A DNA stretch of 64,000 nucleotides from assembly GCF_009914755.1 (NCBI RefSeq), contig NC_060931.1, one strand, 5' to 3'. Both the position numbers and the translations under genes were made by a program. Shown piece after piece: positions 16,011-25,080 of this stretch (position 1 is its first letter; the number at the start of each line of letters is the position of its first letter). Below the pieces are notes generated by a model. The model saw only the letters and a list, made by a program, of their open reading frames with translations, made no database searches and was not told the DNA's origin. Origin of the DNA: the human T2T-CHM13v2.0 reference genome, Homo sapiens.

Positions 16011-16038
16011 TATATGTGTGTATATATATATGTATGTG

Positions 16039-16083
<45 letters not shown>
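16011..16083. repeat. (TA)n/(TG)n microsatellite
   Basis: Long pure TA run preceded by mixed TG/TA. Confidence 0.97.
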
Positions 16084-16086
<3 letters not shown>

Positions 16087-16229
16087 ATGTACTAGGTAAG
16101 CAGAGATATATAGAGCATTAATTTATCAATACTGTTGTTCTATATGTGTTCCTGAGTGGTGTGAAATGTCTGGCATGCAATTGGCTTGAATTGAGGAGCT
16201 GCCCTTCAGAGCAGGGCTGTCTTCTAGAT

Positions 16230-16753: not shown

Positions 16754-17602
16754 TTTTAGATCAACTAAGCTCTCCATAAATACGTTAGAAAAAGTTCACA
16801 ATTTAAGCAAATGATCCAGGCAATTTTTCCCTTCCTTAAAATTAACTCTCTATGCAAAACAAAACTACAAGTGAGCTCTTACCTCTGTATTATATCAACA
16901 AATGATAAACTATTAGGAGGAGGATTGAAGGAACACAAACACGGAGGTCCCTTGGGCTTTCTGACTAATTCTTGTCATTTTTGTCAATTGCATTAACTCT
17001 CCAAAGTTCCCTTTGACCACTTATGGGATTATAACTTCAGCATTTCTCCTTACTGCTGCTGCCTGAGGCAGCCTATTTGATTTTGCCTACATCGCTCTGG
17101 GGCTTGCACGAAGTAGCAGTGTTAAACTTGCAGTGAAAGTGAGCCAAGCCTTTAAGTGCCTACTCAAACAACTTGGCTGACCTCATCATCCTTCTTCTTA
17201 CTAACACCTGGAAATGGATTCGGCCTGGGAGAAATAGATCCTTTTCTTCGTGGAAGCTTCTGCCTATAACTTCTAATTATTCCATGGGACTCTCGATGCT
17301 TTCAAAATGAGTCCATATTCCCCGTCAATCAGAACTATCTTAAACCTCTCTTAAAGGAAACACTTTCAAAATTATCCTTTCTTGGACCAGTTGATTCCAG
17401 GAATTACCATACTTTATATTTTGTCTTAGTCATATCAAACATTTTCACCTTTCATGAATAATTTGAACTTAAAGCAGAATGGGGCTTCCTGGTCCCTATA
17501 TTCATTTTCTTTCTTTCTATTTGCATTCCTGTTGGAAAGCAGTTTTGCTAGTTTGTAGTTTGTTTTTATTATAATGATCACCTAAAAGATAATATATCAA
17601 GA

Positions 17603-17872
17603 GCCAGTATAGCAGAGTGACTAAGAGCATGGATTCTGGAAACAGTCCATCTGATTTGAACCATGACCCTGTAGTTTAAGATCCCTTTGACCTTAGGCAA
17701 ATAAATTATTGAACTTCTCTGGGCTTTAATTTCCTCATCGGAAAAATGGCAATAATAATAATAAGTACTGGCTTGGTAGAGTTGCTATGGAGACTAAATG
17801 TGTTAACATAGTTAAAATTTAGGCATAATGTGACCTATAATAATAAGCTCTTTATAAGTGTTAGATATTATA
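17603..17872 (+). mobile_element. MIR, near full length
   Basis: CAGTATAGCAGAGTGACTAAGAGCATGGATTCTGGA...TTTCCTCATCGGAAAAATGG...AAGTGTTAG. Confidence 0.88.
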
Positions 17873-18269
17873 TTTGCCATCTAAGATATGCTCTGAGTGA
17901 TGATAAATATCAGCATGTAAACACTGTTTGTCTTAAAAATGCACTACTGTGAATACTCTAAAATAGCCTAGTGAGCCATCTTTTGCTCTTAGGGGTACAT
18001 CCATGAATAATGGCTAGCCCTGAAGGTACGTGATGCTAAAACAATGGCATTGCCAGTTTTAACATTGTGGGACTCAGGCAGAATGGAGTCAAAAGACTAA
18101 GAATGGTCTACAAGAAGAAAGAAGGAAGGGAAACAGAAGAAAGACCACCCAACCAATAAACAAGTGTTTTCACCCATCCTGTGTATTCTAGGTGTATTTT
18201 TGATTACCTTCTCATATTATCATATTATTTGTGGAATGTGGACTGTACAGGGACTACCTTTAAAACATT

Positions 18270-18662
18270 GTGTGAACTAATAAATAGCATGAGAACAACT
18301 AGATAAGGCATTACCCAGAATTTTTGACCTGTGGAATGGTCACACCTGAATCCAAGTATGCCACTGAAAGTTTCAGAAGCCTCTTCTGTGGCATTTAAAC
18401 TGAATAATAGAGAGGCCTAGAGCATTTGCGGGGCAGAAAGACAGGGAGAGAGAGAGAGAGAGACAGACACAGACAGACAGACAGACAGACTAACTACACG
18501 GAGAAATCTCAACCTCTAGCAGTGGACTTGATGGAAGAAACTACTCTTTGAAAATGCTGTTTCTACTCCAAAGTCATAACTAACCCATATTATGTATGTT
18601 TATCAGATTTATCCCTCAAAGAAATTTCTTCCAGGAAATATTGGGTCAAGGAGACTGTTACA
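18270..18662 (+). mobile_element. LTR81-like Gypsy LTR (5' LTR of the fossil provirus)
   Basis: GATAAGGC.TTACCCAGAAT..GTCACAC..GTATGCCACTGAAAGTTTC..AGAGAGGCCTA followed by a (GA)n tract matches the recalled LTR81 consensus; ends in TGTTACA; lies just upstream of gag remnants. Confidence 0.7.
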
Positions 18663-18852
18663 GAATAACTTATCCCTTATTTATTGTGCATTGTTTATTT
18701 TTGAAATGTGGAGACGCCTTATGGAGAAGAAAGACTTATGGGGGGTATGGTTTAGTTTGGTGGTCTACATAATATCTGGGTAATCTCCACACAGATCCTG
18801 TGTTGTAGACAATGATGCATAAGTAGCATAGCTTCTGCTACATGTCACTAGG

Positions 18853-19361
18853 CACTGAAAACTCAAAATATTTGTCAGGCTATTGAGAAAGTTATAGGGA
18901 AAGAAAATTTGAACAAGCAGTAGATAGACAACAGAAATATGAACTCCGAAATGAATGTGAAATGTGGGAGGCTGGAATGTCAGCTTCAAGGTGGCTTATG
19001 GAGGAAAATCTGGAGAAACTTGGGGAAGGTGGCAGCACCAATGTTTTGCTGAGGTCTGTGTGATCAGTAGTTTATAAAGTAAATCTTCAGTAGTTTAGAA
19101 AATGCCAAGATACATATGCAAGTTCTTAACAACCTAGACAAGAGCAGATAAAATAAATGCAATTTTGTGATATACTAGAAAGTTTTTTAAAAGGACATTA
19201 GAGAGGAAGGCTTAGGAAAATGGAACCAATTGAGACTCAGTTAAGAGCTGGTGGGAGTAATATATAGCCTAGTGCCAAGCTCTGCCCGACAACATAAATC
19301 TCTCCAAGATGTCTGAGCATCCCTGTGATTTCCATTAATTCAAAGAGAAGCAAGATGGGAA
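18853..19361 (+). pseudogene. Decayed Ty3/Gypsy gag capsid, PNMA/MOAP1-like
   Basis: Manual translation with slips: H*KLKIF/SG ... RWLME ... K*IFSSLEN .../KFLTT* ../FVI/LESFLK/RTLERKA ../NQLRLS*ELVG ... LIQREARWE. This is colinear with PNMA1/2 YRKLRVFSG ... RWLAE ... KQVFGSLES ... KFLNTY ... YVIRLEPLLQKVVEKGA ... NQARLEQVIAG ... VIREEE. Confidence 0.8.
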
Positions 19362-20242
19362 GTCAGAGGTTACTGACAACCAAGAAAAAAAATGAAATAG
19401 TTGAAGAGGCAAAGATCATAAATCAACTCATACGATGTGTCTTATTGAAAGCTGACATATTGGTAGATGCCTTAGACAGTTGGAATAAGAATTTCCAATC
19501 CTCACCTTCACGGGAAGGGGCGTAACAACATGGGCAAGCTCATGAATTCCCCTCAAAACGACACCCCACCTCCTGCTACCAGTACTATCTGAGAGAGTAT
19601 TTAGTACATACTAGTAAATTATACCTCTAAGGAATTACTTCCTAGAGTTGGACAAAATGTCATGGTATTGGATTTGCTTGGGTTCTGGCAGTAACATACT
19701 ACTAGAGCTCCTATCTTGCAATACTCTGAGAAAAGTGTAAGCAGTCTAAAGTTTCTGCATTAACAGATGAAGACAAATTCTGGACAAAGACTCTCAAGTC
19801 ACCATTATTATTTAGTCCATTTCTGGGCATCAGCGTCCACATTTTCCCACAGTGATTATTGACATAACACTCAGTAGTCTGAATGTAGGACATTATCTGC
19901 ATCTGGGCAAACTGTGCTGAAGAGCCCCTGAAGTTGCCAGAGGAGATCAGAGAAGTGACACATGTGGAGCCAGAACTTGCAACCAGACTAATGTTGCTAA
20001 GCAAGAATGTAAGTCAGAAGTTTATCAACAACCTAGAAAAAAAATAGAAATGGTTCACGAGGCAAAGATCATAAATCAACTCAGATGATGTGTCTTATTG
20101 AAAGCTGACAGGTGGGTGGAAGTGTTAGATGGTTGGAATGAGAATTTCCAATCTTTACCTTCATGGGTAGGGGTGCATCATGGGCAAGCTCATGCCATTC
20201 TCCTCAAAAAGGCACCCCACCTTCTGCTACCAGTGCTGTCTG
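19348..20242 (+). repeat. Dispersed direct repeat of ~244 bp: copy 1 at 19348-19591, copy 2 at 19999-20242
   Basis: Hand alignment gives ~83% identity, with shared core GAGGCAAAGATCATAAATCAACTCA.A.GATGTGTCTTATTGAAAGCTGACA; offset 651 bp. Confidence 0.95.
19672..20010 (+). pseudogene. Decayed CCHC zinc knuckle plus retropepsin (Gypsy protease)
   Basis: ICLGSGSN/H (19672-) resembles a degenerate Cx2Cx4H knuckle. INR*RQILDKDSQVTII (19759-19809) corresponds to Gypsy ING...LLD[ST]GSQVTII. It is followed by QRPHFP, YLHLG, LKLPEEI and MLLSKN, which fit the usual HLPI, YPYLG, LEFPEEV and LLGTN. Confidence 0.7.
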
Positions 20243-20900
20243 CAAATTCTAACTACTTTTTGGTATTGACCCATTATTCATTACCACTTATGGAAGAAAG
20301 TGTCTGACATCTTATCATGCTCCCCTTAAATGCCTTTGTGCCTACTTGTATAATTAGATAAAAGTCAGAAAGTACCATGAGAAAATTTTCAGATATCTCA
20401 GCCTACAGGCTGTCGGGAAAAGAAGTCACACACAAAGTATAAGCTTCTTTGACACTGGAAGGTTTTAGATACCCAAGCACTTGAAAGAATCTGTGACAGG
20501 GAAACTAGAAGGGAGGAGGAAAAGCTCTCTCATGTTTTGCGAAATGTAGACTCAGGAACAGTGGAGCAATATGCAATTCTAGGACACCTGGAGTTTTATC
20601 AGTGAGCACTTTAGGAATGTCTGTTTCTCCAAGATGGATTCCTTGAGGGATTGCGTGAAGCAATCCTTATGTTAATGGTGTTATTTTTAAATTCTGAACT
20701 CCATGCTTGTTTGATCATACTGTAGATAAGGTAACAAGAGGAAAATTAACACAGAACTCTATGATTATGGCAGCCAATAGGAGAAGAAAAAATCCTTCAA
20801 GATGCCTTCACTAGAAAGCAGCTTTGGAAAAGACAAAACATATTATTAATTGAGGGGTATCACAGAGTAGTGCCTCATAAGTGGCTTGTGGCTACAGTTA
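20010..20900 (+). pseudogene. Decayed Gypsy integrase
   Basis: In order: MVHEA/KDHKS/*CVLLK (end of the HHCC region; copy 1 of the repeat retains R at the stop), NFQSL, NYFLVLTHYS (20251-20280), AFVPT (20332), AYRL (20401), F*IPKHL..S/QGN (20463-20505), LMF (20529), NTELYD (20748). The 3' boundary is uncertain. Confidence 0.6.
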
Positions 20901-21927
20901 TTGCTACTTCGGAAATACTTCCCAGAAATGCTGAGAGCAATGCCTCATGTCTTTGAAACCAAGGGAGGGAGAAGGCACTGGATATCATCTGATACCTAGG
21001 AAGAGAGAAGGCTCTAGAGATCACTGGGCAGTATTTCTGGCCCCAGAAATAAAAAATGTTTAAGGACCATTATCTTTAATTCTGGCACCTGCAAAGATGA
21101 GTATGGGGAGGAGAGTGGAAAGTAAAATGTGCCCTCCAGGAAGGTTTATGTAAAATGCATCTGACCAGTACTTTTTAAAAAAAATTGTATGTGTTGATTT
21201 TTTTCCCATTAGAAACAGCTAATCTGATATTAGTAAGAGAGTTTTACAGCAGTCATACCAAATCATATCCTATGAATAATCAGAATCTATTCTCTCTGTT
21301 CCATGGATGCTGTGGGAGTTTGTTCATTACAGACTTCCTCTTTGAATTCCTTCTAACCAAGGCAGAGCTTTTAAGAGCCCATTTCTAGAGAAATAATTTT
21401 ATTAGGCAGAAATTTCAAAAAAAAATACCATGACTATTCTCTAATATCCATAGTGAGGCTGTAAACCAGAAATATTTAGCAGAACTTTGTAAATATCTGG
21501 GGAACTCTCCTTTCAAAGTCAAAGCTGTAGTTACTAGCATTTTATTCCTTTCCTGATATCCTACCCCAAAGCTTTCATTTTCCACTGACCTCAGTTTTGG
21601 GGTATGTTTCAAGAGACAATGGATTGCCTTGATTCAGTAAGAAACTAACCTGAAAAATATTCTAGAAGTTTTTCATCATTTGGCAGCTGCAGTCACTCAA
21701 AAAGCAACACAGCCTGCTCTAAAGACACTATGACACCATGTGGGATATCAATGGCATGCTGGAGTTTCATTCACTTGCAAGAGTTTTCAAGGCATTTTAC
21801 AAAAGAAGTTACTGCAGCTAGATTAGGGCCATTTGACCTCTTGCCCCAAATTATTTATTTTTCTATGTTCATTTTATAATAAAGTACTGAAAATAACTTA
21901 ATGATAACTAATATTTGTAAGAAAAAC

Positions 21928-21978
21928 TGTGTGCACACACATGCACATGTGTGTGCATGTGTGCATGTATGTGTGTGA
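21928..21978. repeat. Alternating purine-pyrimidine (CA/TG) tract containing a palindrome
   Basis: TGCACACACATG-CA-CATGTGTGTGCA at 21932-21957. Confidence 0.9.
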
Positions 21979-22343
21979 ATATCTGTGTGTTAAGAGACTT
22001 AGTTTTTTAAAATGAAATGGAAGAATTAAGACTATTTTTCATGGCTAGGTTCTATTAAACACAGCAATTACGTGAATTCCCCTTCATTCTTCCTGGATAA
22101 ATATAGAAAAGTGAGTAAATCTCCTACTTTGAAAAAGTAGGGCACAAATAAGATGTATCTGAGAACCTAGTCATAGGGCAAAGGGAGAAAAATAAACGGT
22201 GAGAGACCAAGACAAGGAGACTTCTGTGCACAAATCTGAGGATATATTTACATGGACCAAAAGGCAACCTGATGGGGAAATATGTATTTTGATTACCTTC
22301 TGGACACTGATAATGATGCTAATGGCTACTATATGCTAATATT

Positions 22344-22790
22344 TATTGAAAGATAATTCTCAATGTTTCCTTCATGTTTCTGTACATTTCACAAGCAGAA
22401 GCATCTACAGCCTATGTTCCAGACTGTCATTCCAAGGATGTTTTTGTAGTGGACAACCTTGGGAGACAGAGATTATAACTCTCCTTTGAGCAAAAAGAAG
22501 ATGTGTTTGTTGTGCTTTATAAAAGACTCAGATTCCCTAAATTTGGGGATTTCCTCCTGACACAACTCTCTGCTTGTGCAGATGTGACCTGGCCCTTTTC
22601 ATGTTTCCCAATAAAACTAAAGTAGGGGGACAGAAAAAAAACATGAGGTACATGCTGTTTGCTATGACATAATTAATACAGTTCTTTGTCTCAGAGCCAG
22701 GAGTCTCATGTCTTCTCCTAGCATCCGAGGATCTGCAGCAGGCTATCTTATTACACAGTTATTACAGAAATATTTCAGACCTTCCACAGT
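22344..22790 (+). mobile_element. LTR40-like ERVL solo LTR
   Basis: AGATAATTCTC..GTTTCTGTACAT..CAAGGATGTTT..TTCCCTAA..CAGGAGTCTCATGTCTTCT..CAGACCTTCCACA matches the recalled LTR40 consensus. Confidence 0.75.
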
Positions 22791-23069
22791 CTGGGCAATG
22801 GTCTTTCTTGTAAAATGCCTTTTTGAGTATCAGAAAATAATCATTGCTCCTAACGGATTTGAAGATAAACTACGCTTATTTACGTTCCAAGAGGTAAAAG
22901 AAGAAAATCAGACCACTATAAGCAGAAGGACATTTCTCACATAGTCTCACCAAAGCAAATTGCAAAATTCAATAAAGAATATATCTCGGAGAAGCCAAGA
23001 TATAGAACTATAGAAAAAGAAAAGATAGTAGAACAATAACTCAGTACATCCTAATAATAACAACGAAAG

Positions 23070-23250
23070 CAATAATTAACTTACATATGGTGGTTTGCAG
23101 TTTACAATGCATTTCCACACATTATTTTATTTGGGTCTTATAACGACCTTTGAAATAGTCTTTTTTATTTTCTTAATTACACAGTTGAGAAAATTAAAGT
23201 TTAGAAAAGGTTACATAAGTTGCTGACGGCCAAAACTAACAAGTTAAGGA
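23070..23250 (-). mobile_element. MIR (MIR3/MIRc-like)
   Basis: TTTGCAGTTTACAATGCATTTCCACACATTATT...ACAGTTGAGAAAATTAAAG. Confidence 0.65.
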
Positions 23251-23359
23251 AATAAACAATTGATATAGACTCAAGCAAACTGAATAAAACCAAAAACAAA
23301 AATCAAGATTTGGCCTTAGGATCACAATCTTTTGTCACAAATTATTTCCTTTCTGTTTT

Positions 23360-25080
23360 AAATCTTCCACTTGTCCCCTGTGAACATGTCTTTCTCTCCT
23401 ATGCAGAAGAACAAAATCCCTCTATTTACACTGTTTACTTTAGTTATAATCCTTCCACTTTGTTTTCATGGTGAAATTATATAAAGAGTAGCTTACATGT
23501 GTTCTCTCTGTCTTTCCTGTTTTCCATCCATTTCATCTATTATTGTTTTTTAAAAAAATCCATATTAAAATCACCAGTGGCATTCTAAATGATAAAGACT
23601 CGGGATGCGTTTTGGTTATTATCTCAAGTTCAATCTCATTTTTTGAAAACATGTTTCTTCTTTGGATTGTGGAATACTTTCAATCACTTATTCTCTTCTT
23701 TCTTTCTGGTTACAATTTCTCAGTTGTTTTCATGGAGATCTCATCTTCCAACTGTCTTATAAATAAATCTTTCTAGAGTTTCATCTCCATCCTTCTCTCC
23801 TTGCTCAATCTGCTTCCACTAAAACATCTCATCTATGCCCATGATTTGATAACTACTCACAATGCAAAGGCACACCCATTCTATATGTCTGGCTCTGATT
23901 TCTTTCTTGAGCTCCAGATATGTATTTCCAAGTATCGAATTTATATCTCAATCTGATAACCTGTGAACTTAAGGTTCAATATGTCCAAAATCAAACCACT
24001 CTACTTTCCCTCTAAATTATTTCTTTTTGTTTTCCTTTCCTGGATTGGGTGAGCCACACTGACTTACTTCTAAAAGCTGAAATGCCCCATCCTTCTTCCT
24101 TAGTCTCCATATTCAGTTGGTGATTGAATTCGGTTCATTCTGCCTCTAGATACTCCCTGTAACATGTGCTTATCTCTCTGTTAACAATGCCTTAACCTTC
24201 ATGGAACCCCACATATTCAATAGGCTGCCCTAGTAAAATAATCTCCTAATAGGTTTTTAGTCTCCTTTTCATCAAAGATACAATTTATTTACTTCTTTCT
24301 GAAATTTAAATCTTACAATTTTGCTATCTCCAGAATTAAAATCTTCAATATCTTCAGATATTTTACTACCTCCAAAATTAATATTGAAGATATTGATTTA
24401 TGTTTATGTCTTTATGAAGATTTATGTTTGTTTTTATGTTTATGTTTGTGTTTTTATGAAGATTGATTTGTTAATAAATAGGTTCTTAATCATGTTTCAG
24501 GAATAGGAAAAGCTAGACTCCAGGATTTGGATTTTAACATCTCCACAAGGAAAGGGGAGAGGGGCTTGACTTCTTCTCAGGAGTGTATTCATTTCATTGT
24601 TAGGCAATGTTGATGGATAATATTTTATCAATGGCATCTAAAGACCCACTTTTTGTGACTATTGCTAAATTCTTCAGCCTTACCTTCAGTGCTTAGACTC
24701 ATGCCCATGTACACACATGCATGACATGCATGCTCATACACAAATATGTCTATACACCAACACACACATCAAGTTCTTCCCTGATATGTAACAGTCATTC
24801 CTGCTTCTCCACATGCTCTGATAACTGCTTGGAGTTTCTTTTCTTCCCCCACCTCTACTCAATACTTTCTATTCAAATTAAAACCCCATTCCACTCTCAA
24901 CTTCTATCCATATGCGCAGAGTTAAAATCTCTCCAAGAATCTTGCATACGTAACATTCAGAGAATGCATTTCATTGCTTTGTCATCATTTGCCACTGGAT
25001 CTGTCTCTCCGAACAGGCTGCTGAATAATGAATACAGTTAAGTTCCTCTAGCTTGTGTACTCTATTTATTATTTACTGTG
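23360..25080 (+). mobile_element. L2 fragments
   Basis: Pyrimidine-rich L2 ORF2/3' motifs (ATCTCATCTATGCCCATG, TCTTGAGCTCCAGA, AATATGTCCAAAATCAAAC); broken by low-complexity sequence at ~24380-24480. Confidence 0.7.

What the first reader, a model, noticed from the sequence alone, without database searches (positions are those of the whole stretch)
18853..19361. PNMA-type capsid relic still attached to its retroelement context
Eight motif blocks align in order and at plausible spacing with the PNMA1/PNMA2 capsid domain. Several stops are single-base decays of the expected residue (TGA from CGA Arg in H*KLKIF; TAA from CAA Gln in K*IFSSLE and RLS*). Because protease and integrase remnants follow, this is better read as a wild relative of the PNMA/MOAP1 progenitor than as a processed PNMA pseudogene (inference). 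A reconstructed Gag could show what the pre-domestication capsid looked like.
Basis: partly seen in the sequence, partly recalled or inferred. Interest (0 to 1): 0.72.

Follow-up and report, generated by a model that had tools for sequence, protein, structure and literature searches.

The report
Dead ancient Gypsy retrotransposon relic
An intron of the human DGKB gene holds the badly decayed remains of an ancient Gypsy-type jumping gene of the kind that gave rise to the PNMA genes, which is a known sort of genomic fossil and too worn to teach much.

Summary

**Capsid stretch (18835-19332, +).**
- It does chain in order along the PNMA capsid profile: 46 of 159 columns identical, with 8 stops and 10 frame changes.
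- The match is borderline. Pfam PNMA does not score it.
- Under strict scoring it sits at background (24 of 250 bins score at least as high). It ranks first only under lenient scoring, and 1 of 14 shuffled windows matches that score.

**Downstream remnants, same strand.**
- 20890-21558 is a clear integrase relic with zinc-binding and core parts. It gives BLASTP E 1e-10 against a natural fish Gag-Pol that carries PNMA_N and PNMA capsid domains.
- It resembles that clade (scores 51.5-69) far more than two human ERV integrases (18.5-21).
- 19777-19963 aligns to the protease, starting at the active-site stretch.
- Reverse transcriptase and RNase H are not detected. The spacing implies about 1.5 kb was lost.

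**Conclusion.** This is a dead, internally deleted Ty3/Gypsy element of the PNMA-progenitor type. That type is called Barthez in print and MamGyp-int in Repbase. The element lies antisense in a DGKB intron and is not a processed PNMA pseudogene.

**Novelty.** The kind is already known, and intact relatives exist in fish, frogs and turtles. This copy therefore adds little, and interest is low.

The parts
18835..19332 (+). Putative capsid (Gag CA) remnant of PNMA type: a collinear chain over three frames
   Evidence: profile positions 1-169 of 186, 46 of 159 columns identical, 8 stops, 10 frame changes. Lenient scoring ranks it 1 of 250 bins; strict scoring puts it at background. Pfam does not score it. 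Wild-element capsid profiles give background here.
19348..19594 (+). Copy A of a local 245-nt duplication, lying between the capsid and protease remnants
   Evidence: 85% identical to copy B over 241 compared bases, K2P 0.168. The own-genome DNA search found no other copy.
19777..19963 (+). Aspartic protease remnant; the alignment begins at the active-site stretch, whose motif is itself mutated
   Evidence: aligns to natural protein P0200 aa 563-624, 18 of 61 identical, 1 stop, 2 frame changes. The protease sub-profile ranks it 1 of 250 bins under both parameter sets. Against this, 0 of 12 single natural elements place their best protease-region match here.
20000..20246 (+). Copy B of the local duplication, lying behind the protease remnant
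20890..21558 (+). Integrase remnant: H2C2 zinc-binding part plus the catalytic core
   Evidence: aligns to natural Gag-Pol P0205 aa 1420-1642, 69 of 210 identical, 11 stops, 8 frame changes. BLASTP of the single-frame piece 21280-21510 gives 44.3 bits, E 1e-10, 27 of 67 identical, to P0205 aa 1555-1619, which lies mostly inside its Pfam rve domain (1510-1606). HMMER 25.3 bits, p 1.1e-10; integrase-core sub-profile scores 57.8 and 72.1 bits, rank 1 of 250.

Best explanation
Window 18835-21558 (+ strand, antisense to DGKB, inside an intron) is the decayed and internally deleted body of an ancient Ty3/Gypsy (Metaviridae) LTR retrotransposon. It belongs to the clade whose Gag carries a PNMA-type capsid.

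**Shown:**
- An integrase relic with zinc-binding and core parts.
- Its specific likeness to PNMA-type Gypsy integrases.
- A protease-like stretch upstream on the same strand.

**Inferred:**
- The weak capsid-like chain at 18835-19332 is the Gag remnant of the same copy.
- Reverse transcriptase and RNase H were lost by deletion of about 1.5 kb.
- A 245-nt piece was later duplicated locally.
- The copy inserted in an early mammalian ancestor and has drifted neutrally since.

It encodes nothing and does nothing now. All frames are broken about once every 20 codons.
For: **Integrase relic.**
- tblastn with a frog Gag-Pol gives E 0.004.
- BLASTP to fish Gag-Pol P0205 gives E 1e-10.
- HMMER with a 42-sequence Gag-Pol profile gives p 1.1e-10.
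- The integrase-core sub-profile scores 57.8 bits. In the full-profile scan the best score elsewhere in the window is 24.5.
- A 223-residue alignment covers the H2C2 and core parts.

**Clade.**
- 10 of 10 PNMA-type Gypsy proteins score 51.5-69, against 21 and 18.5 for two human ERV integrase ORFs.
- The median over 120 relatives is about 55.5, with three more distant Gypsy Pol proteins at 18-20. Six further relatives also scored 15.5-44; three of these are long proteins whose integrase may lie outside the part scored.
- The relatives carry PNMA_N, PNMA, RVT_1, RNase H, Integrase_H2C2 and rve domains.

**Protease.** The sub-profile ranks it 1 of 250 bins under both parameter sets, and the alignment starts at the active-site stretch.

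**Order and spacing.** Capsid end 19332, protease 19777-19963, integrase 20890-21558, all on the + strand and in element order.

**Capsid.**
- It ranks 1 of 250 bins under two lenient parameter sets.
- 1 of 300 and 0 of 300 scrambled profiles reach it under those two sets.
- Its density of stops and frame changes is like that of the integrase relic.
Against: **Capsid.**
- No Pfam hit, and not among the 36 PF14893 matches in the genome.
- Background under strict scoring.
- 1 of 14 shuffled windows reaches the lenient score.
- Weaker than all 20 PNMA-like relic loci used as positive controls.
- Capsid profiles from wild elements give background: ranks 113, 76, 103 and 3 of 250 with the frog and turtle profile. 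True relics also lose roughly 40% of their score with such a profile.
- No PNMA_N signal upstream.

**Protease.** 0 of 12 single natural elements put their best protease-region match there.

**Missing parts.**
- No reverse transcriptase or RNase H signal.
- No zinc knuckle seen.
- No flanking long terminal repeats found.

**Integrase.** Pfam rve and the solved-structure search do not see the fragment.
Confidence: 0.8

Rival explanations
1. Only the pol remnants (protease and integrase) are real. The capsid-like chain at 18853-19361 is a chance match in purine-rich DNA, and the Gag part of the element is gone or lies elsewhere.
For: - Strict scoring is at background, and 122 of 300 scrambled profiles do as well.
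- 1 of 14 shuffled windows reaches the lenient score.
- The unrelated PNMA_N profile reaches 28.2 bits somewhere in the same window.
- Wild-element capsid profiles give background.
- There is no Pfam hit.
- The region is purine-rich, which favours K/E-rich translations.
Against: - The top-ranked capsid bin of the whole window falls just where the protease and integrase remnants predict it.
- 0 of 300 scrambled profiles reach the score under the most lenient set.
- 2 of 12 single wild capsids also place their window-wide best in the 18500-18999 bin.
Confidence: 0.15
2. The capsid-like stretch is a processed pseudogene of a PNMA gene that happens to lie next to an unrelated retroelement fragment.
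For: The capsid stretch scores better with the human PNMA profile (29.1) than with wild-element profiles (16.8).
Against: - No DNA or translated similarity to any of 12 PNMA loci at the capsid positions.
- No PNMA_N domain upstream.
- No poly(A) tract beyond an 8-base A run that is also part of the local duplication.
- The neighbouring integrase is specifically of the PNMA-type Gypsy clade, which would be a large coincidence.
Confidence: 0.03
3. The remnants come from an endogenous retrovirus rather than a Gypsy element.
For: The integrase core is shared by all retroelements, and ERV fragments are very common in the human genome.
Against: Two human ERV integrase ORFs score at background against the relic (21 and 18.5), while 10 of 10 PNMA-type Gypsy proteins score 51.5-69. 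Only two ERV sequences of unknown class were tested.
Confidence: 0.02

Closest known systems
MamGyp-int (Repbase/Dfam ancient mammalian Gypsy internal sequence, with MamGypLTR1a-d, 2, 2b, 2c)
   Same: It is an ancient, dead Ty3/Gypsy element of mammalian genomes. The PNMA2 reading frame is described as the Gag part of such an element (10.1101/2023.02.09.527862, passages read), and Kojima 2018 lists the family among human repeats (PMC5753468, passages read).
   Different: This copy lacks reverse transcriptase and RNase H and carries an internal 245-nt duplication.
Barthez clade of Metaviridae (named as the PNMA progenitor clade)
   Same: Kokosar and Kordis 2013 (PMC3670739, passages and Table 1 read) give Barthez as the progenitor of the PNMA family and report full-length copies in reptiles. 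The natural Gag-Pol proteins that match this relic carry PNMA_N and PNMA capsid domains.
   Different: The clade name was not tested here. I did not place my relatives or the relic in a tree with named Barthez elements.
Human PNMA-family genes (PNMA1-6, MOAP1, ZCCHC12/18)
   Same: The capsid-like chain follows the order of their capsid domain.
   Different: Those genes have intact frames of 351-647 residues and score 158-246 bits against PF14893. This stretch has no open frame and no Pfam score, and it sits next to pol remnants, which the genes lack.
Other weak PNMA-like relics of the human genome (24 weak PF14893 matches; 20 loci fetched as L015-L034)
   Same: They are broken capsid-like stretches with stops.
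   Different: They score 26-140 bits under strict scoring, against 15.1 here. In four of them, 7 kb downstream showed no pol match at E<=0.01, whereas this locus has pol remnants.

Membership tests
Ty3/Gypsy (Metaviridae) LTR retrotransposon of the PNMA-type (Barthez / MamGyp) clade | Integrase with an H2C2 zinc-binding part and a DDE core | tested here: met
   the remnant at 20890-21558 gives E 1e-10 and 69 of 210 identical residues. It is broken by 11 stops and 8 frame changes.
Ty3/Gypsy (Metaviridae) LTR retrotransposon of the PNMA-type (Barthez / MamGyp) clade | Integrase closer to this clade than to ERVs or more distant Gypsy elements | tested here: met
   scores of 51.5-69 against 18.5-21 (two ERV ORFs) and 18-20 (three distant Gypsy Pol proteins). 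No tree was built.
Ty3/Gypsy (Metaviridae) LTR retrotransposon of the PNMA-type (Barthez / MamGyp) clade | Aspartic protease between Gag and the polymerase | tested here: inconclusive
   rank 1 of 250 bins, and the alignment starts at the active-site stretch, but the motif itself is mutated. 0 of 12 single elements agree.
Ty3/Gypsy (Metaviridae) LTR retrotransposon of the PNMA-type (Barthez / MamGyp) clade | Reverse transcriptase and RNase H | tested here: not met
   no signal between the protease and integrase remnants. The spacing implies a deletion of about 1.5 kb.
Ty3/Gypsy (Metaviridae) LTR retrotransposon of the PNMA-type (Barthez / MamGyp) clade | Gag with a PNMA-type capsid | tested here: inconclusive
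   a collinear chain that ranks first only under lenient scoring. No Pfam score.
Ty3/Gypsy (Metaviridae) LTR retrotransposon of the PNMA-type (Barthez / MamGyp) clade | PNMA_N RRM-like domain ahead of the capsid | tested here: not met
   18340-18860 ranks 95-166 of 250 bins.
Ty3/Gypsy (Metaviridae) LTR retrotransposon of the PNMA-type (Barthez / MamGyp) clade | Parts in the order Gag, protease, integrase on one strand | tested here: met
   18835-19332, 19777-19963 and 20890-21558, all on the + strand.
Ty3/Gypsy (Metaviridae) LTR retrotransposon of the PNMA-type (Barthez / MamGyp) clade | Flanking long terminal repeats | tested here: inconclusive
   no direct repeats were found other than the internal 245-nt pair. 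Repeats less than about 65% alike would be missed.
MamGyp-int (Repbase/Dfam) | Alignment to the family consensus or model | not testable with these tools
   No Repbase or Dfam library is on hand. The name is taken from papers.
PNMA gene family or a processed pseudogene of it | Score at or above the PF14893 gathering cut-off (25 bits) | tested here: not met
   no match at E<=10; not among the 36 matches in the genome.
PNMA gene family or a processed pseudogene of it | UTR or DNA homology to a parent gene, and a poly(A) scar | tested here: not met
   no similarity to PNMA loci. Only an 8-base A run follows the stretch.

The most novel reading that the evidence does not exclude
This copy keeps Gag and pol remnants of the mammalian Gypsy lineage from which the PNMA genes were taken, still linked at one locus. 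Its orthologues across mammals could then date the last activity of that lineage relative to the domestication of PNMA.
Probability: 0.5. Interest if true: 0.3.

Novelty: new member of a known kind. Interest (0 to 1): 0.22.

Why it matters
It matters little for biology.
- Ancient Gypsy relics of this type are a catalogued human repeat family.
- The link between that family and PNMA genes is in print.
- Intact relatives with the full Gag-Pol exist in fish, frogs and turtles, so the undomesticated capsid can be studied from living elements.

The useful lesson is about method. A six-frame Pfam scan missed an integrase relic. Natural proteins of the right clade, compared with a frameshift-tolerant alignment, found it at E 1e-10.

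Tried and rejected
**Searches that found nothing useful.**
- The Pfam six-frame scans found nothing relevant. For the integrase this was a false negative.
- The own-genome DNA search found only the window itself and the local duplicate. The own-genome protein searches with window pieces found only the window itself plus two weak hits, E 0.18 and 8.7; the first, L035, has no PNMA signal.
- tblastx against PNMA genes and relics found nothing at capsid positions.
- Relic loci show no DNA similarity to each other at the capsid match.
- Genome-wide searches with PF17921 and PF17919 were swamped by ERV copies and were uninformative.
- The Rfam scan gave only sub-threshold microRNA-like hits on simple repeats.
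- The solved-structure search gave one chance hit at E 1.2.

**Analyses that did not discriminate or were discounted.**
- A five-sequence pol profile matched mostly K/E-rich linker regions, and I discounted those matches.
- A wider capsid profile of 137 relatives lowered the score of the claim (29.1 to 25.0). It lowered 14 of 20 true relics as well, so it did not discriminate.
- Single wild-element capsid and protease searches gave scattered best places.

**Calls that failed.**

Full report
**The locus.** The window is an intron region of human DGKB, which is transcribed on the - strand. The flagged stretch, 18853-19361, lies on the + strand. The quoted motifs are there, but they sit in three different frames. 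Those frames carry 20, 9 and 10 stops in 170 codons.

**First tests went against the finding.**
- Pfam hmmscan found no PNMA, protease, reverse transcriptase or integrase family at E<=10. This covered all six frames of 17001-25002 and of 18853-19364, read with X at stops.
- A six-frame search of the whole genome with PF14893 gave 36 matches at E<=10. Twelve were strong PNMA-family loci, 11 of them with open frames across the match. The other 24 were weak and mostly broken. None lay in this window, although only 40 candidates were scored.
- The finding's own refutation test, a score against the PNMA HMM, is therefore failed.

**A frameshift-tolerant test of the capsid claim.** I built a profile from the capsid part of 10 intact human PNMA-family reading frames. 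I then wrote a local aligner that steps through DNA by codons and allows frame changes and stops at a penalty.

| Test | Result |
|---|---|
| Strict penalties | 15.1 bits; 24 of 250 bins of 510 nt (both strands) score at least as high |
| Lenient penalties | 29.1 bits; rank 1 of 250; next independent bin 23.8 |
| Most lenient penalties | 44.1 bits; rank 1 of 250 |
| Dinucleotide shuffles of the region | 0 of 300 reach the lenient score (maximum 27.8) |
| Block-shuffled whole windows | 1 of 14 reaches 29.1 |
| Order-scrambled profiles on the same DNA | 1 of 300 (lenient), 9 of 300 (intermediate), 122 of 300 (strict), 0 of 300 (most lenient) reach the observed score |
| Unrelated PNMA_N profile | reaches 28.2 bits elsewhere in the window |

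- The lenient alignment runs over profile positions 1-169 and window 18835-19332. It has 46 of 159 identical columns, 8 stops and 10 frame changes.
- Positive controls were 20 loci holding weak genome-wide PF14893 matches. They score 26-140 bits strict and 36-160 lenient, all above the claim. Their wrong strands score 13-23 and 15-28.
Of the stops in match columns, 2 of 8 lie opposite residues one transition away, against 7% in shuffled alignments. That is only mildly unusual.
- On its own, the capsid stretch cannot be told from the best chance match in a 64-kb window.

**Other negative or neutral checks on the capsid stretch.**
- The region has no other copy in the genome by DNA or protein search, apart from a local duplicate.
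- tblastx against PNMA genes and relics shows nothing at capsid positions.
- The PNMA N-terminal domain gives no signal in the 500 nt upstream.
- The + strand of 18000-21250 is purine-rich, which favours K/E-rich translations.

**The turn: natural relatives.** An exhaustive HMMER search of a 1.84-billion-protein library with the PNMA capsid alignment returned 1,921 proteins at E<=0.001.
- Some are long Gag-Pol polyproteins. They carry PNMA and RVT_1, most also RNase H and two also PNMA_N; one has a zinc knuckle, weak protease matches and part of an integrase.
- tblastn of five of these against the window gave one clear hit. A Xenopus protein's integrase-core part matched window 21307-21489 on the + strand at E 0.004, with 23 of 63 identical residues.
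- A word-indexed search seeded with that integrase part found 2,406 relatives. Many are full-length elements of about 1,950-2,040 residues from fish, frogs and a turtle. These carry PNMA_N, PNMA, RVT_1, RNase H, Integrase_H2C2 and rve domains.

**The integrase relic is solid.**
- A profile of 42 such elements, scanned under strict penalties, gives 57.8 bits ending at 21489. The best score elsewhere in the window is 24.5 and the median is 15.5.
- HMMER gives 25.3 bits, p 1.1e-10, for the single-frame piece.
- The BLASTP tool gives 44.3 bits, E 1e-10, 27 of 67 identical, to P0205 residues 1555-1619. That range lies mostly inside P0205's Pfam rve domain.
- A frameshift-tolerant pairwise alignment extends the relic to 20890-21558, matching P0205 residues 1420-1642. 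This covers the H2C2 zinc-binding part and the whole core. It has 69 of 210 identical residues, 11 stops and 8 frame changes.
- Pfam rve and the solved-structure search do not detect the fragment. The earlier Pfam blank was therefore a false negative.

**Which kind of element.**

| Compared with the integrase relic | Pairwise score |
|---|---|
| 10 of 10 PNMA-type Gypsy proteins | 51.5-69 |
| Two human ERV reading frames holding an integrase core | 21 and 18.5 (background) |
| 120 relatives | median about 55.5 |
| Three more distant Gypsy Pol proteins (40-49% identical to the seed) | 18-20 |
| Three long proteins | 15.5-19.5 |

- The low scores of the three long proteins may arise because only the last 900 residues were used.
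- The relic therefore belongs with the Gypsy clade that carries a PNMA-type Gag.
- I built no tree and tested no named clades.

**Other domains.** I scanned the 42-element profile split by domain.
- *Protease:* its window-wide best is at 19914-19963 on the + strand, rank 1 of 250 under both parameter sets, though by small margins. The alignment covers window 19777-19963 and P0200 residues 563-624. It has 18 of 61 identical residues, 1 stop and 2 frame changes. It begins exactly at the active-site stretch, whose flanks are kept while the catalytic motif itself is mutated. As a caution, 0 of 12 single natural elements place their best protease-region match there.
- *Integrase N-terminal part:* it peaks at 21046-21092, just ahead of the core, at rank 2 and rank 1.
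- *Reverse transcriptase and RNase H:* no signal between protease and integrase.
- *Spacing:* 927 nt are observed where about 2.4 kb is expected, which implies a loss of about 1.5 kb.
- *Capsid part of the wild profile:* background at the claimed stretch (16.8 lenient). A frog-and-turtle capsid profile gives ranks 113, 76, 103 and 3 of 250. True relics also lose about 40% of their score with the wild profile, so a 29-bit match would be expected to sink into the background. This replicate does not decide the question.

**Putting it together.**
- Capsid-like chain (18835-19332), protease remnant (19777-19963) and integrase remnant (20890-21558) lie on one strand in element order. The capsid ends about 450 nt ahead of the protease, where roughly 680 nt are expected in an intact element.
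- The window-wide top capsid bin falls just where the pol remnants predict.
- Its density of stops and frame changes matches that of the integrase relic.
- With this context I put the capsid remnant at roughly 0.8 and the element as a whole at well above 0.9.
- A processed PNMA pseudogene is unlikely. There is no parent-gene homology, no PNMA_N domain and no poly(A) scar, and a clade-matched integrase lies beside it.

**What is known.**
- Kojima lists MamGyp-int and its LTRs among human Repbase families (PMC5753468, passages read).
- Kokosar and Kordis name the Barthez clade as PNMA progenitor and report full-length copies in reptiles (PMC3670739, passages and Table 1 read).
- Henriques et al. 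searched the T2T genome in six frames with capsid HMMs. They found 3,140 capsid-like sequences, of which 2,673 were broken. They state that Metaviridae stopped transposing in an ancient mammalian ancestor (PMC11011659, section 5 and passages read; supplements not seen).
- I could not test membership in MamGyp-int, because no repeat library is on hand. I also could not check whether this copy is already annotated.

**Verdict.**
- The object is a member of a known kind, dead and heavily eroded.
- It cannot show what the undomesticated capsid looked like better than the intact elements of fish, frogs and turtles can.
- The proposed repair-and-fold step is referred.

Noticed in passing
window 19348-19594 and 20000-20246: A 245-nt local duplication, 85% identical (K2P 0.168), with no other copy found in the genome. 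One copy lies ahead of the protease remnant and one behind it.
   Followed up: partly
L015-L034 (20 loci elsewhere in the genome): Weak, broken PF14893 matches that score far above background with the frameshift-tolerant aligner. They show no DNA similarity to each other at the match. In four of them, 7 kb downstream held no pol match at E<=0.01.
   Followed up: partly
window 20890-21558: Six-frame Pfam hmmscan and a solved-structure search both missed an integrase relic. A clade-matched natural protein finds it at E 1e-10, which is a warning about relying on blank Pfam scans for old relics.
   Followed up: yes
window 16018-16092 and 21929-21993: TG/CA-rich simple repeats give sub-threshold Rfam hits to mir-297, mir-466 and mir-3149 (51 bits at best, against gathering scores of 85-100). 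They are most likely repeat artefacts.
   Followed up: no
window 18395-18500: A GA/CAGA-rich simple repeat lies just upstream of the capsid-like stretch, where the N-terminal Gag domain would be expected.
   Followed up: no
P0146 (Xenopus tropicalis predicted protein, 1709 aa): This natural Gag-Pol lacks the zinc-binding part and the first half of the integrase core, so the prediction or the copy behind it is itself incomplete.
   Followed up: no
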